DNA of 32,000 nt from Hyperthermus butylicus DSM 5456 (GCF_000015145.1 NC_008818.1:1530001-1562000); one strand, 5' to 3'; counted from the first letter of the stretch, positions 5,386-28,328 are shown. The notes: a model not told the origin generated them from the letters alone. Made by a program: numbers and translations.

Positions 5386-5404
5386 TCGTGGCGGGGTGAT
5401 GATT

Positions 5405-6559: not shown

Positions 6560-6587
6560 CCCATATCACTGTGAAGGGTGTATATCC

Positions 6588-7013: not shown

Positions 7014-7056
7014 CAGCCACCATACCGTCTTGTTTTTACCTCTCCCAGGTCCCATC

Positions 7057-7368: not shown

Positions 7369-7396
7369 TACCAGTAAGGTAGGCCATGACTTTCCC

Positions 7397-7404
7397 TTTT
7401 ATAG
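7397..7404. promoter_or_regulatory. TATA-like element (TTTTATAG / CTATAAAA) between divergent genes
   Basis: Centred about 34 nt from the GTG start of the HMG-CoA reductase gene (7435) and about 33 nt from the GTG start of the ferritin-like gene (7368). No Shine-Dalgarno-like sequence precedes either start, which is consistent with leaderless archaeal transcripts. Confidence 0.4.
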
Positions 7405-7434
7405 TAGTCGGGGCTGCTCGTTCTGCATATCATT

Positions 7435-8946: not shown

Positions 8947-9004
8947 CAATTAGAAAAAACAATGTTTAAATGGAAATAAGAATAAGAATGCAAGGTGAAC
9001 AAAC

Positions 9005-10249
9005 ATGGGAGGCAAGGTATTTTTGGTATCAGCACCGCTCCTACTTGCCGCCATGACTGCGTATATGCTTTTCGTAGCAAACTATGTGCAGCATGCCCCA
9101 CAGTGCTCCGTTACTGACAATGTAGTAAAGCTCTGTGTCAAACCAGTAAATGGTTCATCACTTACAAGAGGATGGGGGACAAGGATAGCCACCAACTATA
9201 TCGACGACAAACGATATGATGCAAATATATTTGTGATATGGTCGCCAAACCCCTGGTATCGCGTCGATGATGCACTGAGATACCTTAGGTCTAAGGGCTA
9301 CAACGTAACCACCGAAGATATTAATAAGCTCACAGTCCTCTTCGCCATAGAGGTAAAAGTGTTTAAGCCAGTAAAAACTACTCTGCCCTTCACGCTAAAT
9401 GACACCGCCACGCAGGGTCCCACTATAGTTTATGGGGAAGAGAGAAATTATGCGCTTGACGAGAAGGTGCTTGTTCTCGGCAATCCCGCGAAGGGCGTAT
9501 TCTACGCGCTGAAACTGAGAAACAACAGGATAATTGACGCTGCCAAGCTCTACCCCGTACTCGTAAACTACACTGTTCAAAGAGAAGTAGACAACTCTTC
9601 GTGTATCTCACTGGAGGAGTTTGTCAGGAAGTACCATGTTAACCATACTGTCGAGGAGCTTAGAGCCCTCGGTGTACCGGAGAAACTCTGCAACGAAGGA
9701 ATAACCATCATTGCCCGCTATAAGCTACGTCCCGCAGATGCTAACCCGGATGTATCGCGGATCTACGTGGATTTACTCGGCAAGGATGTAAACGTCCTCG
9801 ACTACTTTTACTATACGACCTATAGCGAGACAGCAAGCATAATGTCTGGTGCAGCTAAGAGCGTGGCAAAGATGACCGTATGGTGGGCAGGCACTGTCCC
9901 TGTCTACGTACGCGACGAGAGCTACTGTAAGATAGAATGGTGGGCCTACTTGCTAGGCATATGGAAGAATACAGAGTGTGACCACGCAGCCTTTATAGCA
10001 CCCTATAATGGCATTGATACTGCGCATGTTGAATGCCTCGGAAAGTTCTACTATATAGGGCCATTAGCCATAGCAACGTTCTGCGGATCAGCTAAAATAG
10101 ACGTTAACGCATACTCCGAAGAGCCCTGCCACAAGGTTTGCTCTTGTGGCGAGCTCTGCCCGTGTTCTGCAGTTAATAGCTGTCCATGTCGTTACGCGTG
10201 CGACCCCTGCCTTGGATGCACAAGATGTACACTGCTATCACACAGCTAG
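9005..10249 (+). CDS. secreted or membrane-anchored hypothetical glycoprotein with a cysteine-rich (CxC-repeat) C-terminus
   Basis: 414 aa. N-terminal hydrophobic anchor VFLVSAPLLLAAMTAYMLFVANYV, six N-x-S/T sequons, and 11 Cys in the last 40 residues (CHKVCSCGELCPCSAVNSCPCRYACDPCLGCTRC). Shine-Dalgarno-like AGGTGA upstream. Noticeably AT-richer codon usage than the flanking genes. Confidence 0.65.
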   Translation: MGGKVFLVSAPLLLAAMTAYMLFVANYVQHAPQCSVTDNVVKLCVKPVNGSSLTRGWGTRIATNYIDDKRYDANIFVIWSPNPWYRVDDALRYLRSKGYNVTTEDINKLTVLFAIEVKVFKPVKTTLPFTLNDTATQGPTIVYGEERNYALDEKVLVLGNPAKGVFYALKLRNNRIIDAAKLYPVLVNYTVQREVDNSSCISLEEFVRKYHVNHTVEELRALGVPEKLCNEGITIIARYKLRPADANPDVSRIYVDLLGKDVNVLDYFYYTTYSETASIMSGAAKSVAKMTVWWAGTVPVYVRDESYCKIEWWAYLLGIWKNTECDHAAFIAPYNGIDTAHVECLGKFYYIGPLAIATFCGSAKIDVNAYSEEPCHKVCSCGELCPCSAVNSCPCRYACDPCLGCTRCTLLSHS

Positions 10250-10706
10250 ATCTTAGTAATACGTTCACTACTAGATTCAATAGAACTCTTAACTCATATC
10301 GATATCATTAATACTTTTATTTATTTAACAACATTTTAATAGCAAGTATAGGACTAGAGTTAATAATGTTCGTCACTAAAGACACATATTATATGACTTA
10401 ATTCACTACGGTTAGTATGCATACCTCCTTACTGCATAAATGTTCTCGAGCTACTAGGCAGAAGCAAAACAAAAGAAGCCAACAAGCAGTATGAAACTAT
10501 TAACTAAGCTGCATTTGTGACCCAAGATCCTTGCAACTGACAGGCTAGCCTAGTCCGTGAAGGGGGCTACTCCAGAGTTCGCGGTTTCTTGGCGTGTATT
10601 GCCTGGGTTTACTCGCCATAATGACTTCAGCTTGTTTAGGACCTTGCTCTATTAATTTTACATCGCTGTAAAATAGCCAGAGTATGGCAGCTGCGGAGGC
10701 TACATC

Positions 10707-11003
10707 TCAGAGCCTCATGTTGAGTGTTGCTACGTAGTTGTATCCGGGGAGCGTATAGTAGGCCTTCTTTTCGACTCCCGAGAACTTGTCGTAGCCAAGG
10801 TGGATTGTTATTACGCTGCGCCCATCCGGTAGAAGTCTTGTTACGTGTATTCGCTCGTAGAGGTTGTTGAAGAGTATTCTTGGAAGTATGTCACGCTGCT
10901 CTACAAGGAATACTCGAATCTCTCACGTGCCCTCTCCTCACGTGGATCTTCAAAACCAGACCGACGTCACGTAGAAGCTTTCAAGCATTTCTCCAGTAGA
11001 CAT
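10707..11003 (-). pseudogene. decayed ORF remnant (99 codons in one frame, interrupted by three in-frame TGA codons)
   Basis: My translation: MSTGEMLESFYVTSVWF*RST*GEGT*EIRVFLVEQRDILPRILFNNLYERIHVTRLLPDGRSVITIHLGYDKFSGVEKKAYYTLPGYNYVATLNMRL*. The TGAs lie at 10950-52, 10938-40 and 10923-25. The 72-codon stop-free tail lies in a very AT-rich region, where a run that long is unlikely by chance. No family recognised. Confidence 0.3.
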
Positions 11004-11186
11004 GTACCTAGCACACCAAGCATAAAACCACCACAATGACGGTTGAGTATTAAGATTTCATGCCTAGAGGACAATCAAGCATTTACAATGCTTCCTCATG
11101 CGTAGACACCGCTCATGCCCACTCTAAGATTTTGCTCAGGACTAAGCCTAATAGCGTGGGAAATCCCACCTTATAGTGGCGGGATA

Positions 11187-11444
11187 GTGGAGATTATAGC
11201 TAGGGTTGACAAGAAGGGCAGAGTATTGATACCGAGCGAGATACGATTCCAACTCGGCATAAGAAATGCCGTTAAAATACGTGTTGAAAACAATAAGCTG
11301 ATTATAGAGCCTGTAAAGGATCCTATAGAGGCACCAGCATCAACAGTGCCTAAGGGCACCCATGACGTTGAGGCAGAGATAAACGAACTTAGACAAACTG
11401 CTGCAAGAGAGGCCATGCAGAGGCTGAGAGAACGATGGTTCTAA
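11187..11444 (+). CDS. vapB: AbrB/SpoVT-type antitoxin (VapB-like)
   Basis: ARVDKKGRVLIPSEIRFQLGIRNAVKIRVENNKLIIEPV is a typical swapped-hairpin AbrB/SpoVT domain. The likely start is the GTG at 11187 rather than the track's 11115. Its stop overlaps the ATG of the PIN gene (ATGGTTCTAA). Confidence 0.75.
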   Translation: MEIIARVDKKGRVLIPSEIRFQLGIRNAVKIRVENNKLIIEPVKDPIEAPASTVPKGTHDVEAEINELRQTAAREAMQRLRERWF

Positions 11445-11859
11445 TAGAGACAGATCTTCTGCTAGCGTTGGCCTCGATAAGCATCATAATGAGGCGGCTG
11501 AGATTGTTAGGAGAATAAGGCCTCTCCGTCTAACACCATACGCGCTGGTAAAGCTTGATCTACTGCTTCTATCCGGGCGAATAGAAGCTAAGCTGCAGGA
11601 ATTCTATGAGAGCCTCGAGGAACTACTAGCATTCTACAACATAGATATTGCTGTCCCTAAGCCAGCCCACATAGCGTTGGCCTGGAAGCTCCGCGAGACA
11701 TATGGGCTATCGTACTTTGATAGTCTCCACGCAGTAACAGCAATAGTTGAAAATGAGGCCCTAGCAAGCTATGATAAGGTGTACGCTCGTGTAAGGGAGT
11801 TAAAATACCTTCATCCCAGAAGCCTCCTAGCAGCAGATAGCAAGCATACGTTAAGCTAG
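11435..11859 (+). pseudogene. vapC: PIN-domain toxin (VapC-like) disrupted by a single-nucleotide frame change near 11476
   Basis: From the ATG at 11435 the frame gives MVLIETDLLLALAS and stops at 11518. One frame over, from 11476, it reads DKHHNEAAEIVRRIRPLRLTPYALVKLDLLLLSGR...GLSYFDSLHAVTAIVENEALASYD... through to 11859. Joined, the two pieces give a normal PIN domain of about 140 aa with an N-terminal Asp (ETD) and the FDSLH Asp. Confidence 0.65.
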
Positions 11860-12080
11860 ATTAAGCGTAGAAGGTATACGACGTAATCCGACTTATGTAG
11901 CAGCATCAACTCATATGTGCATCCAGCACATAACCTACAAGTAGCCATTAGGGAAGTTCAGTTACTAATACATCACCTGAGGCTAGCACTACTTAGTTAT
12001 GTGTAACCTAGCGGTAGGAACGCTAACAAGTAGCCTTACTATGCAGCCTCTGCCTCGTCTGCGATGGTAGCGTCTCCGTG

Positions 12081-16513: not shown

Positions 16514-17092
16514 TTACTTCTTGCCCAGCTGGCGTATGCCCTGGGCTAGTCTCTGGATCACCGTGGCCCATGAGGCTGCCGCAAGTATCGCGTAGAGCTT
16601 CTCGGCTATGTCTAGTCCTGTGAACCCATGCACTATGAGGACCAATGCTTGTGCCGCGACTCTATCGCTTCTTTCAAGGAGGCCTATACCCTCCATGGAT
16701 TTCCCGGTGAGGCTTTCGTAGCGTGCTCTCGTGTAGCTTGTTACCAGTGCTCCGGAGAGGAATGCAAGAACAAATAGGGGGTTGTAGCCCAGTAGGAGGA
16801 AGCCAAGCGCGTAGACCGTGTCGGTTATCCTGTCGAGAACGCTATCTAGGAAAGCTCCGCGGGGGCCTGCTTCGCCACGTAGCCTTGCTACTGCACCGTC
16901 GAGAGCATCTAGGAGCCCACTAGCGGCGAGCATTACGGCTGCTGCTATGGGCTTGCCGCTACTGCATGGTGCGAGGTAGGCTAGGGCTGCGGCGAGGCCC
17001 AGGACCGTGTATACGTCGGCTGGTAGCAGTGCAAGGGGCTTGGCTGCTCTCGCGAATAGGCCTGCTACCTGGCGGCGGAGTTTTCCCAGCAT
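16514..17092 (-). CDS. CDP-alcohol phosphatidyltransferase family enzyme (archaeal polar-lipid head-group synthase, e.g. archaetidylinositol-phosphate synthase-like)
   Basis: Exact family motif D-x2-D-G-x2-A-R-x8-G-x3-D-x3-D in LDALDGAVARLRGEAGPRGAFLDSVLDRITD. 192 aa polytopic membrane protein. Starts 5 nt after the stop of the NurA-like gene. Confidence 0.8.
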   Translation of the reverse strand: MLGKLRRQVAGLFARAAKPLALLPADVYTVLGLAAALAYLAPCSSGKPIAAAVMLAASGLLDALDGAVARLRGEAGPRGAFLDSVLDRITDTVYALGFLLLGYNPLFVLAFLSGALVTSYTRARYESLTGKSMEGIGLLERSDRVAAQALVLIVHGFTGLDIAEKLYAILAAASWATVIQRLAQGIRQLGKK

Positions 17093-17097
17093 GCCGG

Positions 17098-18303
17098 CTA
17101 TTCCTCCAGGGCTGCAAGCGCCTTTAACACGTCTATAACCGGGTTGCGCTCGGGCACCGTGGCCCTCGCTATTATCTCACGGTAGACTAGCCTTGCTAGG
17201 CTACGGCGTATCTGCACCTTTTCATGCGCCAGTACCACTGGTAGTGGCAGCCGGTAGCCGGGAAGCGTTAGCTCGTGAGCTACTGCTACGGCCTCTGCCG
17301 TCCAGGCATTGGGGTCTTCGCCGCGAGGTACTGGCACGTCTAGCCTGTATGGCCGTAGGGTGTTACCGGGTAGAACGTAGGTCGACACAATCTCTATGCC
17401 CGCTGAGCGGTAGGCGTTGCAGAGCCTCTGGGATAGCTGGCTGCACAATGGAACGGGTTCTGTGTAGGCTGAACCCACGCCAGCAGCCCTAGCTGCAGCT
17501 GCGAGAGCCAGTGCTAGGTCCTCGTCGCCTAGGCTTCCTGGTACTTCTAAACCAGCACTACGTGCCAGGCTTGTGAGGATGCTTAGTCCTGCAATACGTT
17601 TTACCACACCAATAACCCGAACGCCTTCAGAGAGCTTCGAAGCGAGAATTGTTGCCCGCAGATTGTGGTAGCGCGGAGCAAGCCTTAGAGCTTCAGGCTC
17701 AGCCAGTCCGAGCACCTTCATGTACGCTACCGCCATTGCCGCCGCGTCGGGGTCGTGTGGAGGATCCGCTATGGGACCGTCGAGGAGTATGTAGCTACCC
17801 CTGGGGGGCTCTACCGTGTCTAGAGCTGCTGTTTCAAGGAGGAGCATTGCATACTCGGAGACGAGTTCTACCATGGAGCCCGCCGGGTCTACCAGCTCGA
17901 AAACCTCCACTGCTGGATAGGAGACCCTGGCCCTGCCGTCTCGGTACTCCACCACTGCGGAGGCGGCGAAGACGTAGTAGCGGCCGAGCCTGCCACCGAC
18001 ATACTGGCGCGAACCGTCAACACCGTAGAAGGTGTTTGCACGTACTTTCCCCGGTATACCGTGTAGGAGGCCTCGCTCCTCTAGAGCTGCGAGGAGCTTC
18101 TCGCTGAGCCCCGCTAGCCTGGCATAGTCTTGGCTCTGGGCCCGGGCTAGGGCGCGGCGGAGGAGCTTCTCTACAAGCTCACCGTCGCTAGCTATCTCCG
18201 ATGCTAGCGCTGCTAGTTTCTCTCTAACCCTTTCCACCAGCTCCCTCTCCAACACCATACACCCGGCGTAGGCTCTCCACAAGCCGTGTTCTGCCCATCG
18301 CAT
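17098..18303 (-). CDS. NurA-like nuclease-domain protein (paralog type, partner of the HerA-like ATPase)
   Basis: Two acidic motifs in NurA-like order: FYGVDGSRQYVGG, then YILLDGPIADP. About 390-400 aa. The probable start is the ATG at 18258 (MVLERELVE...), overlapping the upstream ATPase gene by 35 nt. Confidence 0.6.
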   Translation of the reverse strand: MRWAEHGLWRAYAGCMVLERELVERVREKLAALASEIASDGELVEKLLRRALARAQSQDYARLAGLSEKLLAALEERGLLHGIPGKVRANTFYGVDGSRQYVGGRLGRYYVFAASAVVEYRDGRARVSYPAVEVFELVDPAGSMVELVSEYAMLLLETAALDTVEPPRGSYILLDGPIADPPHDPDAAAMAVAYMKVLGLAEPEALRLAPRYHNLRATILASKLSEGVRVIGVVKRIAGLSILTSLARSAGLEVPGSLGDEDLALALAAAARAAGVGSAYTEPVPLCSQLSQRLCNAYRSAGIEIVSTYVLPGNTLRPYRLDVPVPRGEDPNAWTAEAVAVAHELTLPGYRLPLPVVLAHEKVQIRRSLARLVYREIIARATVPERNPVIDVLKALAALEE

Positions 18304-19897
18304 GGCTTACCCTGCGGCGGCCGGTGCGTACGAGTGCCGGGAAGCCGAGCATGTTCATCTGCCCAGTTACCACTGCTATGCCGCGCGGTAGACGAGTAAG
18401 CCTCCTTTCGAGGCTTCTCGGCAGACCACCGCTAAGCTTGGAGACATACGGGATATCCTCTACCGCGAGCCTATAGATTATCCACGTGTTAACCATCGAT
18501 AGAACAACAGGATCCACGAAGGCTGGCCTCTGGCTCACGAGTACAAGGCATAGCCCGAACTTGCGGCCCTGCGTAGCTATCAGCGCGAGGTAGTCCCTGG
18601 CTAGGCTCCATGCCACTGGGTATGTGCGGGGGTTGGGTGCGTAGTTCTGGGCCTCCTCGATCACCAGCGCGAGGTAGCGCTCCTCACCCCTCACCTTGTA
18701 CTCTGTAAACACCTTGTAGAGGAGCCGGGCCAGGTAGGCTACAACGAGCTGGCGGACGGGCAGCGGTATCCCTGGGGCGCCCTCGGCTGAGAAGTCGATT
18801 ATCGCGAGGCTGGGTTGCGCCGTCAGCTCATCGATAAACCCCTTGTCTATGCTGGGCTTCCTCGATATAACACCGTAGCCCTCAACTATGTCGCCGACAA
18901 ACTTGTCCACCGCAGAGCGTACCGCACGGGCTGTCTGGGGGTGTATCGGCGCCCCGCGCCCAGTGCTTAGCTCGGAGAGCAGCTCGTAGAGCTCCGAGAC
19001 CCTCCTCGTGAATATCTCTGTGTAGCTTTGGTACTCCTCTCCCAGCTCCCTCAAAACCCTCTCAAGAGCTGCCACCTGCAGCTCGTTAACGTCTACGCCT
19101 CCAGACTTGTAGGTGACTATGAACTCTGCAAGCTCGCGAGCAGTAAACACGTCGAGGTCTATCGTGACGGTTCTGGTGTACGGCTCGAAGCGCGCCGGGC
19201 TCCGCGGGAAGACGAGCCTGTATACAGCATGGTACTCTCCAAGCCGGTGCCCTGAGGCGAAGGCTTCGTGGTAGTCTAGATAGTCGCCATTAGCATCCAC
19301 CACCACTGCCGGTAATGCACCATACCGGCCATCGCCGAGGGGTATTCTCGATAGCAGCTCTAGCATGTAGCCAACACCGTAGCTTTTCCCGCTACCTGTC
19401 TCCCCGAAGACACCAACATGCATAGTGATGTTCTCGATGTCGAGCGGCAGTCCGAGACCCTCATAGCCAAGCAGCTCACCGTACCAGACGACGCCAGGAG
19501 CATCACGTTCTACTCCGAGGAGCTTCTCGAGCTCGCCAGACCCCAGCATTCTAACACGGTCACCAGGCTTTGGTGGCCGGTCGGGCTCCTCCAGCCCTCT
19601 CCTGCCAGCTTTGCCCAGTATTGCTGCCTCTGCAAGCGTGTAGCGGCGAGCAACCTCCTCAGCTAGGGGTGGCAGGAGTCCACGCCGCCTGGCTTCACTC
19701 CAAGGGTCGCCTTCGACGAAGAACTCGTTTACTGGCACAATCCTCTCGATACGGGCTAGCAGGAGTTCCGAGCCACGGTTAGACTCTATGATTACTAGTT
19801 GGCCTTCCCTCAGCCGCTCCTCGCCAGCCTCCGTCAGCTGAATCTTAGCCTCATCGCTTGTCGAGCCACTAAGCACAAAACCTACGAGCAGTGTCAA
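18224..19897 (-). CDS. HerA-like (FtsK/HerA superfamily, DUF87-type) ATPase
   Basis: 557 aa. The N-terminal region (LVGFVLSGSTSDEAKIQL...LVIIESNRGSELLLARIERIVP) resembles a HAS barrel. Walker A GETGSGKS, Walker B LALVIEEAQNY, then GRKFGLCLVLVSQRP, typical of HerA-family helicases/translocases. Confidence 0.8.
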   Translation of the reverse strand: MTLLVGFVLSGSTSDEAKIQLTEAGEERLREGQLVIIESNRGSELLLARIERIVPVNEFFVEGDPWSEARRRGLLPPLAEEVARRYTLAEAAILGKAGRRGLEEPDRPPKPGDRVRMLGSGELEKLLGVERDAPGVVWYGELLGYEGLGLPLDIENITMHVGVFGETGSGKSYGVGYMLELLSRIPLGDGRYGALPAVVVDANGDYLDYHEAFASGHRLGEYHAVYRLVFPRSPARFEPYTRTVTIDLDVFTARELAEFIVTYKSGGVDVNELQVAALERVLRELGEEYQSYTEIFTRRVSELYELLSELSTGRGAPIHPQTARAVRSAVDKFVGDIVEGYGVISRKPSIDKGFIDELTAQPSLAIIDFSAEGAPGIPLPVRQLVVAYLARLLYKVFTEYKVRGEERYLALVIEEAQNYAPNPRTYPVAWSLARDYLALIATQGRKFGLCLVLVSQRPAFVDPVVLSMVNTWIIYRLAVEDIPYVSKLSGGLPRSLERRLTRLPRGIAVVTGQMNMLGFPALVRTGRRRVSHAMGRTRLVESLRRVYGVGEGAGGKG

Positions 19898-19985
19898 AGT
19901 ATCCGGTGCCCCGCTCCTATTCCCTCGCCGGGGTTGAGTAGTGAAAGGGCTGCGGGTTCATCAGAGGGTCTAAAATCTCCTGGTT

Positions 19986-21212
19986 TTGCTTAATCTTCCG
20001 GAGGCGGCTGGATTGGCTCGTGCGAGAACTGTTAAGCTTTATGATAACCTCTACCTTATACGTGTCGAGGACGATGAAACAGGGTTCTTCGAGGCTCTCT
20101 GGGAGATACCAGAAGGAGTAACCTACAACTCCTACCTAATCCTAGGCCAAAAGCGTACAGTTCTGCTTGACACTGTTAAGAAGCCCTTTACACTTGACTA
20201 TCTGGAAGCTCTTAGCAGTATTACTGAGCTGCGCGATATAGATGTCATTGTGGTCCACCACTCTGAGCCAGACCACTCTGGCGCCTTGCCTGAGCTGTTA
20301 AAGCGTGTAGGTAACGTTGAAGTCTATGGTCATCCAATGGCGAAGACTATTATTGAGAGCCACTATGGTGTAAAGCTGAACTCGTTCAAGCCTGTGCGGG
20401 AGGGCGCCAGACTAGACCTCGGTGGCGATGAGTATCTAGTGTTCTATCAGACTCCATGGGTTCATTGGCCCGATACAGTTATGAGCTTCTATGAGGCTCG
20501 GGGCGTCCTATTTTCCGGTGATGTGTTCGGCTCCTACTCTATACCTTCAAGCGTGACTGACGAGCATGTGGAGGATTTTACCACATATATCCGGTTCATG
20601 AGGAAGTACTTGGCTACTGTTGCTGGGAGGTATAGGAGCTGGATATTGAAGACGCTGGACAAGCTGGAAAATGCTGGCGTTAAACCTAAGACAATAGCGC
20701 CGCTTCACGGCCTAGTACTGCGACGCTACATCGGAGACTTCTTGAGGCTTTATCGTAGCTGGGTGAGCGGCGACCTAGACAAGAGTAGGGCTGTTGTGAT
20801 CTACGGTAGTATGTACGGTGCTGTGGAGTATGCAGCACACATCGTGGCCGACATGTTACGGGAGAAGGGGCTTCACGTAGCTATCTACGGTTTCAACGAT
20901 AAGAGCCGGGCCCTCATAGCCGACGCTATCGGCGATGCGTTTGACGCAGGCTACATCGTACTAGGGGTTCCGACATATGAGGCTGAGGCCTTCCCCCTAA
21001 TGACCTATGTTGCTGAGCAGCTCTGCGCTAAGGCTGCTGCTGGGCAGAGAGTGATGCTGTTATCCTCCTATGGTTGGGGTCCTGCTGCCATAAAGAAGCT
21101 GGAGCCTTTGCTGACAAATTGTGGGTTCAAAATTGCTGCTCGAGTCGAGGTCCGCGGTGTAGAGTATGGTGACAAGCTGCGCGAGGCCGTAGAGAAGCTG
21201 CTAGCTGGCTAG
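19986..21212 (+). CDS. flavodiiron protein (metallo-beta-lactamase-like domain plus flavodoxin-like domain)
   Basis: H-x-E-x-D-H diiron motif in VVHHSEPDHSG, and a C-terminal flavodoxin-like segment (AVVIYGSMYGAVE...). About 400 aa as expected for class A FDPs. The TTG start is uncertain. Confidence 0.8.
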   Translation: MLNLPEAAGLARARTVKLYDNLYLIRVEDDETGFFEALWEIPEGVTYNSYLILGQKRTVLLDTVKKPFTLDYLEALSSITELRDIDVIVVHHSEPDHSGALPELLKRVGNVEVYGHPMAKTIIESHYGVKLNSFKPVREGARLDLGGDEYLVFYQTPWVHWPDTVMSFYEARGVLFSGDVFGSYSIPSSVTDEHVEDFTTYIRFMRKYLATVAGRYRSWILKTLDKLENAGVKPKTIAPLHGLVLRRYIGDFLRLYRSWVSGDLDKSRAVVIYGSMYGAVEYAAHIVADMLREKGLHVAIYGFNDKSRALIADAIGDAFDAGYIVLGVPTYEAEAFPLMTYVAEQLCAKAAAGQRVMLLSSYGWGPAAIKKLEPLLTNCGFKIAARVEVRGVEYGDKLREAVEKLLAG

Positions 21213-21253: not shown

Positions 21254-22624
21254 GTGCAGCTAGGATCCATGGGCGGGCTTGGGGGGCTGCTAAAGGCGTT
21301 AGAGAGGGTTGGCTGGCTGCTAGATCGTAACGTTCCAGTGCTAGGCTGTAGGCTTGGATCTCGCAGCTGCTGGAATGTGAGAGGCGACTACTGGCTAGCG
21401 GGTGGGTTTGAGAAGAGCATTGTCAGCCAGCTCTTCCACTCTACTTTCGGGGTTAGAGTATCCTTTGATGAGAGGCTTGTGGTTTTTCACCGTATACCAG
21501 CACCTCAGAGCGAGTATGCCATCGAGGTTTTTGCTGAAGCGCTAAGACTCAGCGCAATAGAGTATGTGGCTGGGCGTGGCTGGGTTCTCCACCCTAGTGG
21601 TGCAGCTGCAAGTCTTGCAGCAAGCCTTGGCGCTCCAACCATCGGCGTTTCAGGGCCGCGGGGAAGGCGGCTTAAGGGTAAACGTGTAAGGCTCCCAGAG
21701 TGTAGCATTGGGAGCCGCAACTGGGTCTTGGTATCCGTTGATGGCTGGGTAGGCCCTGCGAGGGTTGTTGGAGAGTGTACTGTGAAGGTTAAGGACTTGG
21801 CTCCAAAGGGTATGAGGCTCCTAGATCCCGGCAGCATGGAGGAGGCAGTGGAAGTTAACGCGGAGGTAGTAGGCGGCCTAGCCTCTGAGGCTAGGGAGTT
21901 TATCAGACGCGTCTACGCGAGGTACCAGGCTAGCAGGGGCAGGCTATACGTAGCCTTTAGCGGTGGCTCCGACTCCGCCACAGTCCTCAGCCTCGCGAGG
22001 GAGGCTGTTGGCCCCGAGAACGTGGTAGCAGTATACGTTGACACCGGCATGGAGTTTCCGGAGACACGAAGGTATGTTGAGAAGGTTACTAGCATCCTGG
22101 GTGTAGACCTAGAGGTTGTTGAAGCTGAAGCTGAACCCATCGAGGAGATTAGGAGAAGAGGGCTCATGACGAGGGATGACAGGTGGTGTACCCGGCTACT
22201 AAAGCTCAAGCCGTTGCGGCGCTTCTACCGGTCACGCGGCGTAAGGCTCATACTCGACGGGGCTCGCCGCTGGGAAAGCACGACGAGAGCCTCGACACCT
22301 AGGATTGGCGAGAATCCCCTCATACCTGGCGTCGTGAGGGCACTACCCATACATCACTGGCCACGGCTGGCTGTGCAGCTCTACCTCTACGAGAGGGGCA
22401 TACCATTCAACCACCTTTACAGCAAGGGGCTCACACGCATAGGCTGCATATCATGCCCCGCAATGCATCTCTACGAGCTACACATAGCATACCATCTACA
22501 CCCCTGGTGGTTTGAGAAGCTAGCTGAGGCCGTAGCAGAGCACTACGGGCTCTCACAGCGCGAAGCCCTGCGGTTGCTATTAGTCGGCTCCTGGAGGAAG
22601 GCTGGAGGCCGAAAGGCGTCTTAG
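21254..22624 (+). CDS. PP-loop ATP pyrophosphatase / PAPS-reductase-like family protein with an N-terminal extension of about 200 aa
   Basis: PP-loop LYVAFSGGSDSATVL, then VYVDTGMEFPET and a C-terminal GCISCP. The N-terminal half is unassigned. Alternative ATG start at 21269. Confidence 0.7.
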   Translation: MQLGSMGGLGGLLKALERVGWLLDRNVPVLGCRLGSRSCWNVRGDYWLAGGFEKSIVSQLFHSTFGVRVSFDERLVVFHRIPAPQSEYAIEVFAEALRLSAIEYVAGRGWVLHPSGAAASLAASLGAPTIGVSGPRGRRLKGKRVRLPECSIGSRNWVLVSVDGWVGPARVVGECTVKVKDLAPKGMRLLDPGSMEEAVEVNAEVVGGLASEAREFIRRVYARYQASRGRLYVAFSGGSDSATVLSLAREAVGPENVVAVYVDTGMEFPETRRYVEKVTSILGVDLEVVEAEAEPIEEIRRRGLMTRDDRWCTRLLKLKPLRRFYRSRGVRLILDGARRWESTTRASTPRIGENPLIPGVVRALPIHHWPRLAVQLYLYERGIPFNHLYSKGLTRIGCISCPAMHLYELHIAYHLHPWWFEKLAEAVAEHYGLSQREALRLLLVGSWRKAGGRKAS

Positions 22625-23032: not shown

Positions 23033-24391
23033 ATGGTTTCCCCTGGGGCTCCGTGGTTGAGGCCAGGCGACTGGTTCATAGACATGTTTACTAGCGAGGC
23101 TGAGAAGCTCCTGGAGTCCCTGAAGGCGCGGCAGGCTGGAAGGAGTCTTCAGAGCGTTGATACGTACTGGTGGGTTCCAGGCCTTCCCGAGGATGGGGAT
23201 GCTGATCGCCCAGTTGCAGCCGTGGATGGAGGCGGCGGATTCCAGCCTCTTGCTATGGGGTGGAGCCTCTACATAGCCAGGGCGTACGGCTACGTTGAGG
23301 GTGGGGAGCCCGAGAGGGGGCTGGAGCTTCGCCTCTATCCTGTCCGCGATACCCGTGTCCTCGACTCGCTAAGATCCTGGCTTGAGCACAGGATTGCTGT
23401 GAGGCTCGTGCACCGGCTCCCACCGGGCAGCATACTCCTAATGGATGGCAGTTTGTGGACCACAATCACGTCGGCTTTCCGCTCCATAGCCAGACTTGCA
23501 TCTAGTTCGATAAGCGGTATCGGAGGGGTCTACACGGCGCTCCACAGCAGCTACCTACTCGCCGAGGTAGCTACACTCTGTAGAACTGCTGCTGAGCGGG
23601 GGGTTAGGCTTGCCTATGTATCGAAGGATCACGGGTTTAGGGCTTTAAAGGAGAAGGTTTTACTTGAAATGGTTGCCTCGAAGGCCAAGCCGCTGGCCCA
23701 GCTGGTTTCAAGGGCTCTGGATTACTACCCGCTAGCGATGAGGGAGCAGCTGCTATCCGCTCGAAGGCTCGTCCCGAGAGAGCTGAGAGGCCTCTATGAC
23801 GCTGCACTAGACCCGAGCTACCGAGATCCAGCATTCCTAGCTGACACCGCGGGCTTCAGTGTTGGCTACACGTGGCCGCTAAGGCTGCCACCGCCGCACC
23901 AGCTGCACAGCAGGCTAAGACGTGGCGGGCTACGCGGTCTCCTCGAGGCTGCAGCTGAGAAGGCCTATGTACTCCTCGGAGACGAGCCGGAGGCTAGCGA
24001 ATTCCGCTCCCTCGCAGAGAGGCTGCCAGAGCTTCTAGACCAGCTACCCGGCGTAAGCATGGTCTATGTTAGGCTTGCTCCTGGCGACCAGCCTCTCCTC
24101 GTCGAGATACCCGGGCCTTCAGGCAGCTACTATTCGACGGGAAGGGTGCTCGTAGAGCCCGACGCCGCCGTGGAGGAGGTGCTCGCTGCTCTTCGCAGAG
24201 GCTACGGGGATCCCGATTACTACAATATACCGCTCATAGCTGCCCACTTGAACGCTACGATCACAGGGAGGCAGATGGAGGAGTACATGGGGCTCCTTGA
24301 GAGCCTAGCACTGGCCCAGGGTGTAGGGCTGCGGTTTACAAGACGCTACAGTATATCTCGAAGGTTTAGGAGGAGATTTGGAAGACTGTAA
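23033..24391 (+). CDS. second NurA-like nuclease-domain protein (divergent paralog)
   Basis: 452 aa. Motifs PVAAVDGGGGF and ILLMDGSLWTT occur in the same order and at similar spacing as the DGS / LLDG motifs of the 17098..18303 product and of NurA nucleases. Confidence 0.55.
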   Translation: MVSPGAPWLRPGDWFIDMFTSEAEKLLESLKARQAGRSLQSVDTYWWVPGLPEDGDADRPVAAVDGGGGFQPLAMGWSLYIARAYGYVEGGEPERGLELRLYPVRDTRVLDSLRSWLEHRIAVRLVHRLPPGSILLMDGSLWTTITSAFRSIARLASSSISGIGGVYTALHSSYLLAEVATLCRTAAERGVRLAYVSKDHGFRALKEKVLLEMVASKAKPLAQLVSRALDYYPLAMREQLLSARRLVPRELRGLYDAALDPSYRDPAFLADTAGFSVGYTWPLRLPPPHQLHSRLRRGGLRGLLEAAAEKAYVLLGDEPEASEFRSLAERLPELLDQLPGVSMVYVRLAPGDQPLLVEIPGPSGSYYSTGRVLVEPDAAVEEVLAALRRGYGDPDYYNIPLIAAHLNATITGRQMEEYMGLLESLALAQGVGLRFTRRYSISRRFRRRFGRL

Positions 24392-25180: not shown

Positions 25181-27111
25181 GTGTTCCCAAGGGTTGGCTC
25201 TCGATGGCTTGGAGGAGTAATAGTTGAGCTTGAGACTGGCGCGCGTGTAGACATGCTAATGCCCGGCTCTATTGCGCGGTGGCTCCAGCCTGGAGAGCAC
25301 GTAGAGGCGTTATTCACGGAGGAGCCCGAGGCCATTAATGGCGCCTATGTCGCGCCAAAGGATAGCTATAGGCTTTGGCGGCTATGGAGTGACGGCAGCC
25401 GGGTCGAAAAGATACCGGTTTGGCCGCCGTGGAAAAAGGAGGTAAGACTGGAGAGGGAGAGCGTCTTCGGAAGGAAATTGTACGAGTACAGGATTGTTGC
25501 CAGGGAGGCTGTCTCGGAGGATGACTACAAGGAGATTGTGAGCCTGGAACAGTACCATTATGCAAGCAAGGAGGAAATAGTGGCTATTTGGCGCTGCCCG
25601 CTCTGTGGCAGGTACGCTGAAGCCAATGTACAGCCGGAATGTCCAATGTGCGGTGTACCTATGAAGCTACAAGAGATAAGGGGTAGTCTTCCTTCGAGCC
25701 GGTTTATGGTTCTAGAACTTGTCTCTAGGGAGCCCTATGAGCCCAGGATAGTGGGCTATGTACGTGTCGACACGCCGATACCCCTAATGCATCGGCGCAT
25801 AGTAACTGAGGACGGCAGGGTAATAGTCGAGAAGATGATTAGAGAAAAGGTGTTTCCAAGGGACTGGTTCCACCCAACCTTCTGGCCCCTTGCCATTCAG
25901 AGGAGAAGGCAGATACTTGAGAGGTTTAGGGAGTTAGCAGACCTCTATGGCTCGAAAAGAATTGCACGTGCAGCCGTGGGCGAAGAGATAGCTGAAGAGG
26001 CTCTACGTAGGGCTAACACCGCCGCTGCCCGCATTGCCCGCGTAGTAGTACACCCTGACTACCGTGGCGACGGTCTTGGCGTGTTAGCTGTAAAGCTTGC
26101 CGTGGAGTGGATAAAAGGAGCGGCGAATACCAGAGATGAAGCGCGCCAAACACGTCGTTGAGACCATAGCTCAGATGGCTAGGTATAACCCGTTCTTTGA
26201 AAAGGCGGGCTTCTACTACATGTGGGATACTGCGAGCAGCCGCCCAGTCCTCATGTACCCGCTAACCGAGGAGGCTTAGGAGGAGGATACTCGAGTTCCT
26301 ACAACGCGACCCCCAAGCGAGGAGGCATGGAGGCAAGCTGTTCCAGCCAAGGTATGGCAGGGTTGAGCCATTAGCTGGACCTATAAGGTTGGTAAACCTC
26401 ACGAAGATGTATAGGAGCCAACTAGACGTCTCTAGGCTCCCGCCAGATCTCCAAGACGTGCTCAAGGCTTTCGGCGCTGAGAGGAGGCTAGTAGAGAGAT
26501 ACGTACTCAGGGACGTAAACATAGAGGTCAAGCCAGGGGAGGTTGTGGCCGTCGTCGGCGCTAGCGGTGCCGGCAAGACAACCCTTCTGAGGATGGTTAT
26601 CGGAGCAGCACTCGGCATTGACAATGAAAACTACAGGACAACAAGTGGCAGGGTCGAGTTGCCAAGCAACGTTAGACTTGCCGCATTATTGCCGGGAGAG
26701 ATTGAGCCCGAGTTTGGCGATGAGACCTTGCTGGAGCACGTTTCGAGAAAGACTGGCGACCCTGCTGTGAGCGTGGAGATACTCAACGCTGTAGGCCTCA
26801 GCGACGCGATATTCTACAGGGCAAGATTTAGCGAGCTATCTACTGGGCAGAAGGAGAGAGCCAAGCTTGCCAGCCTCCTAGCCGAGAAGCCAAACCTGCT
26901 GATAATAGACGAGTTTACCGCCCACCTGGACCGACTCACAGCGCAGAGGGTTGCAAGGAAACTCGGCAAGCTTGCAAGGGCAGCGGGTATAACCGCTATA
27001 GCCTCGACTAACCGTCCCGAGGTGCTCGAAGCACTAGCGCCAGACAAGATCATACTAGTGGGCTACGGCTCTGCCACGGTGGTCTCCAAGGAGGAGCTAG
27101 GCCTTGGCTAG
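25181..27111 (+). pseudogene. GNAT acetyltransferase - ABC ATPase fusion gene (COG2401-like architecture) interrupted by two +1 frame changes
   Basis: Segment 1 (25181..26161) has a Zn ribbon CPLCGRYAEANVQPECPMCG and the GNAT motif VVHPDYRGDGLG. Segment 2 (open 26115..26279, next frame) reads ERRIPEMKRAKHVVETIAQMARYNPFFEKAGFYYMWD. Segment 3 (open 26266..27111, next frame) reads ...LEFLQRDPQ...GPIRLVNLTKMY, then Walker A GASGAGKT, signature LSTGQKERA and Walker B LLIIDEFTAHLD. Together they give one protein of about 640 aa. Confidence 0.6.
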
Positions 27112-28328
27112 GCCTCAACACCCGCCTCTTTCCTAGTCATGGATGGAGCTGCCTGGCTGGCTAACGGCTGAGACTGCTGCCATCCAGCGTACATGGAGAC
27201 TGACTGCTGAGTAAGGGGTCGCTGTGCCGCTAGCTGCATGTAGGGTGTTTGGATCTGCTGGATAGGCGGCTGAGGAGACGCCATGACGGGGTATGGTGCT
27301 GGCTGCAGCATTGGTTGGGCCTGCTGGGCTGGCAACTGTTGCGCCATGGGGAGCTGCGGCGGCTGGACTGGCGGAACCACGGCCTGCTGCAGGTACGGCT
27401 GGGCTGCCGGTGGTGCCATGGGCTGAGAGAACGCTTGCTGGTATAGGCGGCGTATATCCTCGTTTACGAGGTGTAGGTACACCTGGGTAACCTTGATGTC
27501 CTTATGGCCGAGGAGCCTCTGCACCGCAGGCAGTGGTAGACCCCTACGTAGAGCCTCTGTTGCGAATGTATGGCGTAGCACGTGGGGCCTAACCTTTCTC
27601 GGATCGAGACCTGCCCGCTTCGCCAGCGTCTTTAGCCTCTTATAGAGCCCACTATAGCTTATCCCAAGCAGCTTATCGTCTGGCTTCATGTCTGGATGCA
27701 GCTGGAGCCAGATCTGCATCGCATACTCAGTCAACGGGCCATAGAGGACTATCCTCTCCTCCCCGTACTTGGCGCCTCTTACTCTTATCTCGCGGCGCTG
27801 GAAGTCTATATCGCCGAGCCTGAGTTCTACAGCTTCCTGGGCTCGTAGCCCTGTCTCAAAGAGAAGCGCGACTATGAGGAGGTCTAGGGGGTCCCGGGCT
27901 GCCGCGAGTAGCTTCTCAACCTCCTCCCTACTCAGGGCTTCGACGCGTGCGCCGCGGGGCTTCTTTACCACCGGCACCTTTACATCTAGGCCTAGCCATG
28001 CTAGGAAGCCCCGGAGGAACAATGTGTAGTAGTGCATTGTTGCCTGGCGGCTGCGGGCGTCGAGGAGATTATTGCCGCTGCTCCTTGGCCTTCGCACACC
28101 CTTGGAGAGCCTCTCGTATATCCATGCGGAGACATCGCTGCTGTCTATCTGGAAGATGTGTTTGTCGCCTATGAAGTCTAGGAAGTCGCGTAGTGCTGCA
28201 CGGTAGGCCTTCACAGTCTTTGGGCTTGCACCAGCTGCGGCTAGGGCTGCAAGGAAAGCCTCAACTATCTCCTCGTTGCTCTTCGATTCTATTCCGGGCG
28301 GCGGCGGTGGCAGGTCGAATTTCGTCAA
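27108..28328 (-). CDS. xerA: XerA/XerC-type tyrosine recombinase with a 106-residue Gln/Pro-rich C-terminal extension
   Basis: N-terminal SAM-like core-binding region (EEIVEAFLAALAAAGASPKTVKAYRAALRDFLDF). Catalytic region GLRAQE...HVLRHTFAT...LLGHKDIKVTQVYLH, carrying the R...HxxR...H...Y residues. The tail occupies 27111-27428. Confidence 0.8.
   Translation of the reverse strand: MTKFDLPPPPPGIESKSNEEIVEAFLAALAAAGASPKTVKAYRAALRDFLDFIGDKHIFQIDSSDVSAWIYERLSKGVRRPRSSGNNLLDARSRQATMHYYTLFLRGFLAWLGLDVKVPVVKKPRGARVEALSREEVEKLLAAARDPLDLLIVALLFETGLRAQEAVELRLGDIDFQRREIRVRGAKYGEERIVLYGPLTEYAMQIWLQLHPDMKPDDKLLGISYSGLYKRLKTLAKRAGLDPRKVRPHVLRHTFATEALRRGLPLPAVQRLLGHKDIKVTQVYLHLVNEDIRRLYQQAFSQPMAPPAAQPYLQQAVVPPVQPPQLPMAQQLPAQQAQPMLQPAPYPVMASPQPPIQQIQTPYMQLAAQRPLTQQSVSMYAGWQQSQPLASQAAPSMTRKEAGVEA

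What the first reader, a model, noticed from the sequence alone, without database searches (positions are those of the whole stretch)
17098..19897. Stand-alone HerA-like ATPase plus NurA-like nuclease pair with no mre11/rad50, transcriptionally joined to a lipid head-group synthase
The 557-aa product has a HAS-barrel-like N-terminus, Walker A GETGSGKS and Walker B VIEEAQNY, which fits HerA/FtsK-type. The overlapping downstream 401-aa product carries NurA-like DGS and LLDG acidic motifs. In the well-characterised archaeal DNA end-resection operon, herA and nurA are linked to mre11 and rad50, and neither gene is present anywhere in this 32 kb window. The two-gene module ends 5 nt before a CDP-alcohol phosphatidyltransferase gene on the same strand, which is an odd functional juxtaposition. 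Translocase plus nuclease pairs of this fold are also a recurring architecture in prokaryotic defence systems. This could therefore be a paralogous nucleic-acid processing or defence-type module of unknown role rather than the canonical repair machine.
Basis: partly seen in the sequence, partly recalled or inferred. Interest (0 to 1): 0.7.

Follow-up and report, generated by a model that had tools for sequence, protein, structure and literature searches.

The report
Non-canonical HerA–NurA translocase–nuclease pair
This Hyperthermus butylicus locus encodes a real DNA-pumping ATPase (HerA-like) and nuclease (NurA-like) pair that is not the classical break-repair machine but a stripped-down member of a family that elsewhere is wired to DNA-base-modification genes, which suggests a restriction-like defence origin.

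Summary
18224..19897(-) encodes a full-length HerA-fold ATPase. 17098..18303(-) encodes a NurA-fold nuclease with the D-E-D-H catalytic set. The two genes overlap, the next gene (a CDP-alcohol phosphatidyltransferase, probably archaetidylinositol-phosphate synthase) starts 5 nt downstream, and no mre11 or rad50 lies in the 32 kb window. The source is Hyperthermus butylicus.

The HerA-like protein is not a canonical HerA orthologue: it scores 65-71 bits against equivalog cut-offs of 800-970. It belongs to a discrete, patchily distributed family. In 74 related loci the usual arrangement is NurA, HerA, a ~1400-aa Orc/Cdc6/STAND-like AAA+ protein with a coiled coil, an ArcS-core (DUF5591) protein, and a short TGT/DpdA-like transglycosylase. 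That looks like a 7-deazaguanine restriction-modification-type system.

The Hyperthermus/Pyrodictium/Pyrolobus clade is nested inside this family and has lost the extra genes, leaving a two-gene module under purifying selection. The lipid-gene adjacency is confined to the closest relatives and is probably incidental.

Multiple HerA-NurA paralogue pairs in Crenarchaeota were already known, so the window feature is a new member of a known kind. I found no published description of the wider system. Whether H. butylicus also has the canonical operon could not be tested.

The parts
18224..19897 (-). HerA-like hexameric-translocase ATPase, 557 aa. It has an N-terminal beta-barrel (aa ~4-117) and a RecA-like core with Walker A at aa 165-172 and Walker B at aa 412-419.
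   Evidence: Pfam DUF87 E=4e-21. The AF2 model has pLDDT 86.9. The best Foldseek match is S. solfataricus HerA 4d2i at E=1.8e-29, TM 0.65/0.77 over 535 columns. It is 100% identical to the H. butylicus 'ATP-binding protein' P0001. Motifs were mapped.
17098..18303 (-). NurA-like RNase H-fold nuclease. The maximal ORF is 401 aa; the likely true start is at 18258 or 18252. Catalytic candidates are D96, E157, D175 and H360.
   Evidence: Pfam NurA E=3.9e-16. The family profile A2 hits solved NurA 2ygk at E=1.7e-6 and 3tai at E=5.8e-4, with the motifs aligned. The AF2 model has pLDDT 71.2. The top 8 Foldseek PDB hits are all NurA, with the best at E=6e-9. D96, E157 and D175 are invariant in 53 partners; H360 sits in the conserved LAHEK motif next to near-invariant A359.
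18224..18303 (-). Overlap between the HerA 3' end and the NurA 5' end (29-80 nt depending on the start codon), consistent with translational coupling.
   Evidence: Sequence read. In related loci, 48 of 54 adjacent same-strand HerA/NurA pairs overlap or are 20 nt or less apart.
16514..17092 (-). CDP-alcohol phosphatidyltransferase, probably archaetidylinositol-phosphate synthase, 192 aa. It is a downstream neighbour and probably not part of the module.
   Evidence: Pfam CDP-OH_P_transf E=1.3e-12. NCBIfam archin_ph_syn scores 168.3 bits against a cut-off of 180. The signature DGxxARx8Gx3Dx3D is present. Adjacency is conserved only in L001 and L004.
19898..19985 (.). An 88-nt divergent intergenic region between the HerA-like gene and the flavodiiron-type gene at 19986..21212(+). 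It is the presumed promoter region and contains an A/T-rich ATTTTAG element.
   Evidence: Sequence read. The promoter role is inference only; no archaeal promoter model was available, and the sigma-70 scan does not apply to archaea.

Best explanation
The two genes encode a non-canonical HerA-NurA machine. By analogy with solved complexes, this is a hexameric FtsK/HerA-clade ATPase ring that pumps double-stranded DNA into a NurA dimer docked on its barrel face, where the strands are separated and digested. The pair belongs to a discrete family whose typical, and probably ancestral, form is a 4-5 gene system: NurA, HerA, a ~1400-aa Orc/Cdc6/STAND-like AAA+ protein with a long coiled coil, an ArcS-core (DUF5591) or DUF6884 protein, and a short TGT/DpdA-like transglycosylase. 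The last two genes are the kind that put 7-deazaguanine bases into DNA, so the whole system reads as a restriction-modification-like defence system with HerA-NurA as its destructive arm. In the Hyperthermus/Pyrodictium/Pyrolobus lineage the sensor and modification genes are no longer linked, and only the motor-nuclease pair remains, intact and under purifying selection. I infer that in H. butylicus it acts as an ATP-driven exonuclease on DNA with free ends, such as invading linear DNA or broken or unprotected DNA. The adjacency to the lipid head-group synthase is a lineage-specific accident of gene packing, although the genes may still be co-transcribed. SHOWN: the folds, the motifs, non-orthology to canonical HerA, the family gene neighbourhoods, the nested position of the 2-gene form, and the selection signal. 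INFERRED: complex formation, the DNA substrate, the defence role, and 7-deazaguanine modification in the full system.
For: Folds and motifs. Not canonical: NCBIfam HerA_Thermprot scores 71 bits against a cut-off of 800, and helicase_HerA scores 65 against 970. The family profile separates about 30 full-length representatives at 418-810 bits from all other HerA proteins at about 234 bits or less. The Thermococcus member P0038 matches solved T. kodakarensis HerA (9x1l) only at E=9e-17 over 90 aa. Neighbourhoods: NurA-like is present in 57 of 78 loci, the giant protein in 44, TGT in 23 and DUF5591 in 19. Among the 19 loci with long flanks, 18 have NurA, 13 the giant protein, and 10 have TGT plus ArcS-like or DUF6884. 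Partner identities: TGT E=1.6e-21, DpdA model E=1.8e-14, ArcS alpha E=1.9e-14, and the giant protein hits AAA_22, nSTAND and AAA_16 with invariant Walker A and B. DUF5591 is the ArcS catalytic core that viruses use together with DpdA on DNA (PMC10516641). The 2-gene loci are nested within a Pyrodictiaceae/Desulfurococcales clade that also contains giant-bearing loci L005, L006, L011 and L010. dN/dS is 0.11-0.16 for HerA-like and 0.24-0.39 for NurA-like, against 0.15-0.24 for the lipid gene. T. kodakarensis HerA-NurA degrades both strands exonucleolytically, and its authors propose an antiviral role (PMC12977600).
Against: No defence function has been tested for any member of this family. In H. 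butylicus the modification and AAA+ partner genes are absent from the whole window, with no remnants, so self/non-self discrimination is unexplained. The pair may have been domesticated for a housekeeping DNA-processing role. GC content is not atypical, and the pair is vertically conserved across Pyrodictiaceae genera, which is more like a core gene than a mobile defence island. PADLOC matches HerA only at domain level and does not match the NurA-like protein. The tree is a simple midpoint-rooted NJ tree, gene calls in the loci are my own crude ORF calls, dS is saturated, and the NurA model rests on a 5-sequence alignment.
Confidence: 0.6

Rival explanations
1. Domesticated housekeeping module. 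After losing its partner genes, the pair was kept in Pyrodictiaceae for a cellular DNA-processing job such as back-up end resection, stalled-fork processing, or chromosome clearance at division, and not for defence.
For: The pair is conserved vertically in Hyperthermus, Pyrodictium, Pyrofollis and Pyrolobus at 57-75% HerA identity. Purifying selection on it is as strong as on the neighbouring essential lipid gene. GC content is unremarkable. In Pyrolobus the pair lies next to cdvB/cdvC. The canonical HerA-NurA is essential in Sulfolobus (PMC4351679).
Against: Most of the family sits with modification and AAA+ sensor-type genes and is scattered patchily across archaeal phyla and a few bacterial MAGs, which is typical of accessory systems. 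The NurA partner evolves fast, at 45% identity against 75% for HerA. The cdv genes are on the opposite strand and are not found near the pair in the window.
Confidence: 0.25
2. It is the canonical DNA double-strand-break resection machine, with mre11 and rad50 simply relocated elsewhere in the genome.
For: NCBI names the NurA-like protein 'DNA double-strand break repair nuclease NurA'. The presence of another HerA in H. butylicus could not be checked.
Against: Canonical HerA equivalog models score 65-71 bits against cut-offs of 800-970. The match to S. solfataricus HerA by sequence covers only the C-terminal ATPase core. The same family co-exists as an extra copy in lineages known to have canonical HerA-NurA: Thermococcus and Sulfolobaceae (L064, L069, L070). 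Thermoproteales are documented to carry three or more nurA-herA pairs (PMC3396285).
Confidence: 0.06
3. It is a CRISPR-associated Cas-HerA/Cas-NurA pair of the kind described in Thermoproteales and Desulfurococcales.
For: CRISPR-linked nurA-(csm6)-herA pairs exist in Crenarchaeota, including the Desulfurococcales member Tagg_0814/0815 (PMC3396285 and PMC3973734).
Against: The window has no CRISPR array, no cas gene and no csm6. Only 2 of 78 family loci have an array-like repeat within 10 kb.
Confidence: 0.03
4. It is functionally coupled to membrane-lipid synthesis, for example as a membrane-associated DNA pump co-regulated with archaetidylinositol-phosphate synthase.
For: There is a 5-nt gap and an SD-like GGAGG upstream of the lipid gene. 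The same order is found in Pyrodictium occultum and MAG L004.
Against: The lipid gene is absent from the neighbourhood in Pyrolobus, Thermococcus and nearly all other family loci, and lies on the opposite strand in L010. Neither protein has a transmembrane or lipid-binding domain hit.
Confidence: 0.03
5. It is a decaying, non-functional remnant of the larger system.
For: The partner genes are missing, with no traces in the window.
Against: Both ORFs are intact and all catalytic motifs are retained. dN/dS is well below 1. The 2-gene form persists across several genera.
Confidence: 0.03

Closest known systems
Canonical archaeal HerA-NurA end-resection complex (S. solfataricus 4d2i/2ygk; T. kodakarensis 9x1l/9x1m)
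   Same: Both proteins have the same two folds over their full length, the same Walker A/B and NurA D-E-D-H residues, and adjacent, overlapping genes.
   Different: It is not an orthologue: 65-71 bits against equivalog cut-offs of 800-970. It has no mre11/rad50 linkage. The family's usual partners are an AAA+ giant protein and TGT/ArcS-like genes instead.
Extra nurA-herA paralogue pairs of Thermoproteales, including the CRISPR-associated nurA-csm6-herA (Bernick 2012, PMC3396285; Vestergaard 2014, PMC3973734)
   Same: It is a crenarchaeal HerA-NurA pair additional to the repair machine, with weak similarity to SSO2251-type HerA and a weak Pfam NurA score.
   Different: There is no csm6, cas gene or CRISPR array.
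Bacterial stand-alone HerA-NurA (Deinococcus radiodurans 7f6d/7wrx)
   Same: It is a two-gene HerA-NurA without mre11/rad50, and the structures match.
   Different: It is a different family by sequence and is archaeal. Most relatives carry additional conserved partners.
HerA-based anti-phage systems (SIR2-HerA, HerA-DUF4297, TdpAB)
   Same: A HerA hexamer is coupled to an effector encoded next to it. PADLOC HerA models match at up to 106 bits, and Foldseek matches are E~1e-21 to 1e-25.
   Different: The effector here is NurA, not SIR2, DUF4297 or TdpB. No defence phenotype is known.
Dpd 7-deazaguanine restriction-modification system and viral DpdA+ArcS DNA modification
   Same: In the full form of this family, a short TGT/DpdA-like protein without a PUA domain and an ArcS-core protein sit in the operon (PMC10516641).
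   Different: No DpdB, DpdC or DpdD-K genes were identified among the conserved partner families. The TGT scores below both the DpdA and arcTGT cut-offs. None of these genes is present in the H. butylicus window.
HerA/FtsK 'capture' systems with Orc/Cdc6 AAA+ ATPases, and the BREX-related capture (BRC) system with HerA + TGT (PMC10853773, PMC12839542)
   Same: The theme is the same: a HerA translocase, an Orc/Cdc6/STAND-type AAA+ protein, a nuclease and, in BRC, a TGT.
   Different: Those systems use REase or PglZ effectors and DUF6079/DUF4007. NurA is not mentioned in either paper (0 occurrences), and no C2 member hit DUF6079.

Membership tests
HerA clade of the FtsK/HerA ATPase superfamily | Central DUF87/HerA P-loop domain above the Pfam gathering score | tested here: met
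   PF01935 E=4e-21, 76.6 bits against a gathering score of 23.2.
HerA clade of the FtsK/HerA ATPase superfamily | Walker A lysine and Walker B acidic pair conserved | tested here: met
   GETGSGKS (K171) and VIEEAQNY (E414, E415) are invariant in 16 family members.
HerA clade of the FtsK/HerA ATPase superfamily | N-terminal HAS-type beta-barrel plus RecA-like core, matching solved HerA over the full length | tested here: met
   The AF2 model has pLDDT 86.9 with beta strands at aa 4-57 and 85-117. Foldseek matches 4d2i over 535 columns at E=1.8e-29, TM 0.77 on the target.
HerA clade of the FtsK/HerA ATPase superfamily | Hexameric ring that translocates dsDNA | not testable with these tools
   No multimer prediction or experiment was available.
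Canonical DSB-repair HerA (NCBIfam equivalogs NF040937 and NF040819) | Whole-protein score above the curated equivalog cut-off | tested here: not met
   71 bits against 800, and 65.2 bits against 970.
Canonical herA-mre11-rad50-nurA operon | mre11 and rad50 genes linked to the pair | tested here: not met
   No Metallophos/Mre11 or Rad50-type ORF in the 32 kb window.
Canonical herA-mre11-rad50-nurA operon | It is the only herA/nurA set in the genome | not testable with these tools
   The rest of the H. butylicus genome could not be fetched. A second NurA-domain gene exists at 23033..24391.
NurA nuclease family | Pfam NurA domain above the gathering score, full-length | tested here: met
   PF09376 E=3.9e-16, 59.7 bits against a gathering score of 21, model positions 2-254 of 254.
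NurA nuclease family | RNase H-like fold closest to solved NurA structures | tested here: met
   The top 8 Foldseek PDB hits are NurA (2ygk E=6e-9; 3tal; 9x1m_G), followed by EndoV and PIWI. The model is moderate: pLDDT 71.2 from a 5-sequence alignment.
NurA nuclease family | Catalytic Asp-Glu-Asp-His metal site | tested here: met
   D96, E157 and D175 are invariant and the LAHEK motif (with H360) is conserved in 53 partners. They align with the DGS, E, DG and AH motifs of 2ygk and 3tai.
NurA nuclease family | Dimer that docks on HerA and is activated by it | not testable with these tools
   The only support is gene overlap and co-occurrence: 54 adjacent pairs, 48 of them 20 nt or less apart.
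CRISPR-associated Cas-HerA/Cas-NurA | Located next to a CRISPR array, cas genes or csm6 | tested here: not met
   No array in the window, no cas families, and arrays near only 2 of 78 family loci.
Dpd-like 7-deazaguanine restriction-modification system | TGT/DpdA paralogue in the same locus | tested here: not met
   Absent from the window, including as remnants. Present in 23 related loci, and in 10 of the 19 loci with long flanks.
Known HerA anti-phage systems (SIR2-HerA, DUF4297-HerA) | SIR2 or DUF4297 effector encoded next to HerA | tested here: not met
   The neighbour is NurA. PADLOC gives no hit for it, and the HerA models match only partially.
Archaetidylinositol-phosphate synthase (neighbour 16514..17092) | CDP-alcohol phosphatidyltransferase motif and the equivalog score | tested here: inconclusive
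   Pfam E=1.3e-12 and the DGxxAR..G..D..D motif is present. NF040950 scores 168.3 bits, just below its cut-off of 180.

The most novel reading that the evidence does not exclude
The HerA-like family in this window defines an undescribed prokaryotic defence system, mostly archaeal. In it, a HerA-NurA motor-nuclease is the restriction arm, a giant Orc/Cdc6/STAND-like AAA+ coiled-coil protein is the sensor or loader, and a DpdA-like transglycosylase plus an ArcS-core (or DUF6884) enzyme marks self DNA with an archaeosine-type 7-deazaguanine. H. butylicus and its relatives retain an 'orphan' restriction arm that has been repurposed.
Probability: 0.4. Interest if true: 0.75.

Novelty: new member of a known kind. 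Interest (0 to 1): 0.45.

Why it matters
The window feature itself is a further example of the extra HerA-NurA pairs already known in Crenarchaeota. It still matters for annotation, because NCBI labels the nuclease as the DSB-repair NurA, and the evidence here says it is not.

The more useful result is the family context. The conserved operon (NurA, HerA, AAA+ giant, ArcS-like, TGT-like) recurs across at least ten archaeal lineages and a few bacterial MAGs. If confirmed, it would be the first link between HerA-NurA and 7-deazaguanine DNA modification. It would give an experimentally tractable test of the recent proposal that HerA-NurA machines are antiviral. It would also predict archaeosine-type bases in archaeal genomic DNA.

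Tried and rejected
1. Exact look-ups of the H. butylicus HerA-like protein found nothing on record, so the source genome could not be walked.

2. Several routes to test for a canonical herA-mre11-rad50-nurA operon in H. butylicus failed: literature searches for the species or 'Hbut' together with Rad50, Mre11 or HerA, and names of ~500-aa HerA representatives.

3. Word-indexed homologue searches for the NurA-like protein returned only 3-4 hits, even with a 53-sequence profile. The AF2 alignment was therefore shallow.

4. phmmer of either NurA-domain protein against the PDB found nothing meaningful. Only the family profile and the fold search worked.

6. The sigma-70 promoter and terminator scan does not apply to an archaeon, and I disregarded it.

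7. I rejected the idea that the giant C2 protein is a Rad50 or SMC analogue. Its Walker A and B motifs lie ~100 aa apart at the N-terminus, which is the AAA+/STAND arrangement, and only its coiled coil matches SMC proteins.

8. The P. occultum gene at the position syntenic to the second NurA turned out to be an AAA_22/wHTH protein, not a NurA.

9. Viral contigs hold no close relative; the best match is 24% identical.

10. Iyer et al. 2004 (PMC521647) is not held in the library.
Full report
**Observation.** Pfam assigns the first to DUF87/HerA central domain (E=4e-21) and the second to NurA (E=3.9e-16, covering the whole model). The gene 5 nt downstream, 16514..17092(-), is a CDP-alcohol phosphatidyltransferase. 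It is closest to archaetidylinositol-phosphate synthase, at 168 bits against a cut-off of 180, and it has the family signature motif. The HerA 3' end overlaps the NurA 5' end by 29-80 nt, depending on the start codon used. The lipid gene has a GGAGG 10 nt upstream of its ATG, inside the NurA 3' end. I scanned every other ORF of 100 aa or more that is not nested inside a longer assigned gene. None is Mre11-like or Rad50-like, and none is long enough to be Rad50.

**Source and fold checks.** The HerA-like protein is 100% identical to an 'ATP-binding protein' of Hyperthermus butylicus on a 1.67-Mb contig. An AlphaFold2 model built from 16 family members (pLDDT 86.9) aligns over its full length with solved HerA subunits, including the N-terminal beta-barrel. 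The matches include S. solfataricus 4d2i (E=1.8e-29), T. kodakarensis, D. radiodurans, and the anti-phage HerA proteins of the SIR2-HerA, HerA-DUF4297 and TdpAB systems.

The NurA-like protein has no direct sequence match in the PDB. A profile of 53 partner proteins does hit S. solfataricus NurA (2ygk, E=1.7e-6) and P. furiosus NurA (3tai, E=5.8e-4), with the catalytic motifs in register. D96, E157 and D175 are invariant across the family, and the LAHEK motif that holds H360 is conserved. A moderate AF2 model (pLDDT 71.2, from only a 5-sequence alignment) returns NurA structures as its top eight Foldseek hits (best E=6e-9). Endonuclease V and PIWI come next, as expected for this branch of the RNase H fold.

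**Not the canonical machine.** The curated equivalog models for canonical HerA score 71 and 65 bits against cut-offs of 800 and 970. The anti-phage HerA and CedD models score no better. A profile of the family searched against 1.84 billion representative proteins gives about 30 full-length members at 418-810 bits, then a drop to about 234 bits or less for every other HerA. The family is discrete and fairly small.

The Thermococcus member (P0038, 56% identical to the window protein) matches the solved T. kodakarensis HerA only at E=9e-17 over 90 residues (entry identity). It is therefore an extra copy in a genus where the characterised canonical HerA belongs to a different family. The family also occurs in Sulfolobaceae, where the canonical pair is essential (PMC4351679, listed). 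Thermoproteales are already known to carry three or more nurA-herA pairs: one canonical, one CRISPR-linked with csm6, and one of unknown role (PMC3396285; PMC3973734).

I could not test directly whether H. butylicus has a canonical operon elsewhere. The window does hold a second NurA-domain gene at 23033..24391(+). It has no detectable similarity to the first beyond motifs.

**What the family looks like elsewhere.** A scan of one genome per species returned 74 loci. They come from Pyrodictiaceae, other Desulfurococcales, Bathyarchaeia, Aenigmatarchaeota, Njordarchaeota, Nitrososphaerota, Thermoplasmata, Methanobacteriaceae, Archaeoglobales, Methanodesulfokora, Hydrothermarchaeum and Sulfolobaceae, plus a few bacterial MAGs. 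I called ORFs and clustered the neighbours. Besides HerA-like (77 loci), the recurrent neighbours were:
- a NurA-like protein of ~370 aa, in 57 loci
- a ~1400-aa protein (C2), in 44 loci
- a ~345-aa TGT protein (C3), in 23 loci
- a ~255-aa DUF5591 protein (C4), in 19 loci
- a DUF6884 protein (C7), in 6 loci

The typical order is NurA, HerA, C2, DUF5591, TGT (for example L029 8850..17845). Of 54 directly adjacent same-strand HerA/NurA pairs, 48 overlap or lie 20 nt or less apart.

The TGT protein matches arcTGT (95.9 bits, cut-off 350) and DpdA (53 bits, cut-off 200; PADLOC DpdA E=1.8e-14), passes neither cut-off, and is too short to carry the tRNA-binding domains. DUF5591 is the catalytic core of archaeosine synthase ArcS, which some viruses pair with DpdA to make 7-deazaguanine DNA (PMC10516641; NCBIfam ArcS alpha E=1.9e-14). 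C2 has an invariant N-terminal Walker A (GEWGEGKT) and Walker B (DEFEE) about 100 residues apart. It matches AAA_22, nSTAND_NTPase5 and AAA_16, gives scattered winged-helix hits, and has a ~300-residue C-terminal coiled coil. This is an Orc/Cdc6/STAND-type AAA+ protein, not a Rad50.

**Position of the window locus.** In a midpoint-rooted NJ tree of the HerA-like proteins, loci with the full gene set fill most of the tree. The Pyrodictiaceae/Desulfurococcales sequences form a nested clade with three kinds of locus:
- the giant gene divergently upstream (L005, L006, L011)
- the giant gene 4.7 kb downstream (L010)
- no giant gene at all (the window, Pyrodictium occultum L001, L004, Pyrolobus L002, L015, L009, L046)

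Among the 19 loci with at least 7 kb and 9 kb of flank, 18 have NurA, 13 have the giant protein, and 10 have TGT plus ArcS-like or DUF6884. All six two-gene loci belong to that clade. A tblastn search of all C2, C3, C4 and C7 proteins against the window finds no remnants.

The two-gene form is thus most simply a derived, reduced form. It is not decaying. Against Pyrodictium and L004, dN/dS is 0.11-0.16 for HerA-like and 0.24-0.39 for NurA-like, compared with 0.15-0.24 for the adjacent lipid gene. dS is saturated, so these values are rough.

**The lipid gene.** The CDP-alcohol transferase follows the pair on the same strand only in the window, L001 and L004. In L010 it is nearby on the opposite strand. 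In Pyrolobus, cdvC/cdvB lie there instead, and in Thermococcus and the other lineages the system genes do. Co-transcription in H. butylicus is plausible from the 5-nt spacing and the SD-like motif, but it is untested. A functional link is unlikely.

**Other rivals.** CRISPR association is not supported: the window has no array or cas genes, and only 2 of 78 loci have an array-like repeat. The family is not viral.

**Mechanism.** By homology with the solved S. solfataricus, D. radiodurans and T. kodakarensis complexes, the most likely working model is a HerA hexamer that feeds dsDNA into a NurA dimer. The T. kodakarensis complex degrades both strands exonucleolytically whatever the end structure, and its authors suggest an antiviral role (PMC12977600).

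For the full system I infer a restriction-modification-like logic. TGT-like plus ArcS-like would mark self DNA with a 7-deazaguanine, the AAA+ coiled-coil protein would sense or load, and HerA-NurA would destroy unmarked DNA. For H. butylicus, which lacks the marking and sensing genes nearby, I infer an end-dependent DNA-degrading or DNA-processing role. Whether that role is defensive or domesticated stays open: I put 0.6 on the overall reading given above and 0.25 on domestication.

**Comparison with known systems and novelty.** The general themes are published. HerA combined with Orc/Cdc6 AAA+ proteins and nucleases forms the 'capture systems' of PMC10853773. HerA with TGT occurs in the BREX-related capture system of PMC12839542. 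Neither paper mentions NurA. No paper in the searchable library contains both 'NurA' and 'archaeosine', and none links DpdA with HerA-NurA. That library holds open-access papers only, so absence there is not proof of novelty.

I classify the window feature as a new member of a known kind (extra crenarchaeal HerA-NurA pairs). The wider operon is a probable new variant of Dpd-like or HerA-capture defence systems.

**Limits.** Gene calls in the related loci are simple longest-ORF calls. The clusters are single-linkage BLAST clusters. The tree is NJ with midpoint rooting. Many contigs are short, so absences in them mean little. The NurA model rests on five sequences. No function in this family has been tested experimentally.

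Noticed in passing
window 23033..24391 (+): A second NurA-domain protein of 452 aa (Pfam NurA E=1.8e-10), ~3 kb from the pair, with no HerA next to it. It shows no significant similarity to the first NurA-like protein beyond motifs. Homologues lie near the pair in L004 (59% identity, 6.3 kb away) and in Pyrolobus L002 (a 401-aa NurA next to a PEBP gene, as in the window). Its role is unknown.
   Followed up: partly
L029 8850..17845; also L003 8001..17360, L027, L033-L036, L038, L050, L060, L064, L076: A conserved operon of NurA, HerA, a ~1400-aa Orc/Cdc6/STAND-like AAA+ coiled-coil protein, an ArcS-core (DUF5591) protein and a short TGT/DpdA-like protein, found across many archaeal phyla. I found no description of it in the searchable literature. 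It is a candidate 7-deazaguanine restriction-modification-type system.
   Followed up: partly
L031 7655..16322; L032, L039, L049, L071, L072: The bacterial MAGs (Chloroflexota, Bacillota, Bacteroidota, Calditrichaceae, Cyanobacteria) and a Methanobacteriaceae MAG carry the same system with a DUF6884 protein in place of the ArcS-like gene. Thermococcus L003 has both.
   Followed up: no
window 21254..22624 (+): A PAPS-reductase/PP-loop protein of 456 aa with a ~230-aa unassigned N-terminal region. It lies close to the HerA-like gene in the window, Pyrodictium occultum (L001), L004 and L016, and is directly adjacent in L016. It could be a tRNA or DNA thiolation-type enzyme. The DndC model gives only a very weak hit (E=0.0018).
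   Followed up: no
L002 10793..13071 (Pyrolobus fumarii): In Pyrolobus, and apparently in L015, the HerA-NurA pair is immediately followed on the opposite strand by the cell-division genes cdvC (Vps4-like) and cdvB.
   Followed up: no
window 9000..12000: A low-GC patch (0.44-0.48 against ~0.56 for the window). It contains a 414-aa ORF with no family hit (9005..10249) and a MazE/AbrB-type antitoxin-like ORF (11115..11444). It may be a small horizontally acquired insert.
   Followed up: no
window 27108..28328 (-) and 26389..27111 (+): A tyrosine recombinase with an N-terminal SAM-like domain (XerA-like or an integrase) sits next to an ABC-type ATPase that has weak nSTAND hits.
   Followed up: no
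L017 7863..10077: In one Desulfurococcales MAG, an AAA_21/AAA_15 (AbiEii/OLD-like) ATPase and a 319-aa protein are inserted between the NurA gene and the giant gene. This suggests a defence-island-like context.
   Followed up: no
L009 1676..3823 and L046: Some Pyrodictiaceae MAGs have an additional 715-aa HerA-like paralogue ~5.5 kb upstream of the family member.
   Followed up: no
L063 9499..13814; L023, L073: A sub-branch of the family has no NurA neighbour. Instead it is flanked by an Lrp/AsnC regulator, a 154-aa protein, a metallophosphoesterase and a 203-aa protein.
   Followed up: no
window 4330..8793: An archaeal mevalonate-pathway cluster: HMG-CoA synthase, thiolase, an OB-fold DUF35-type protein and HMG-CoA reductase. 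It is ordinary housekeeping, but together with the AIP synthase it makes this a lipid-rich neighbourhood.
   Followed up: no
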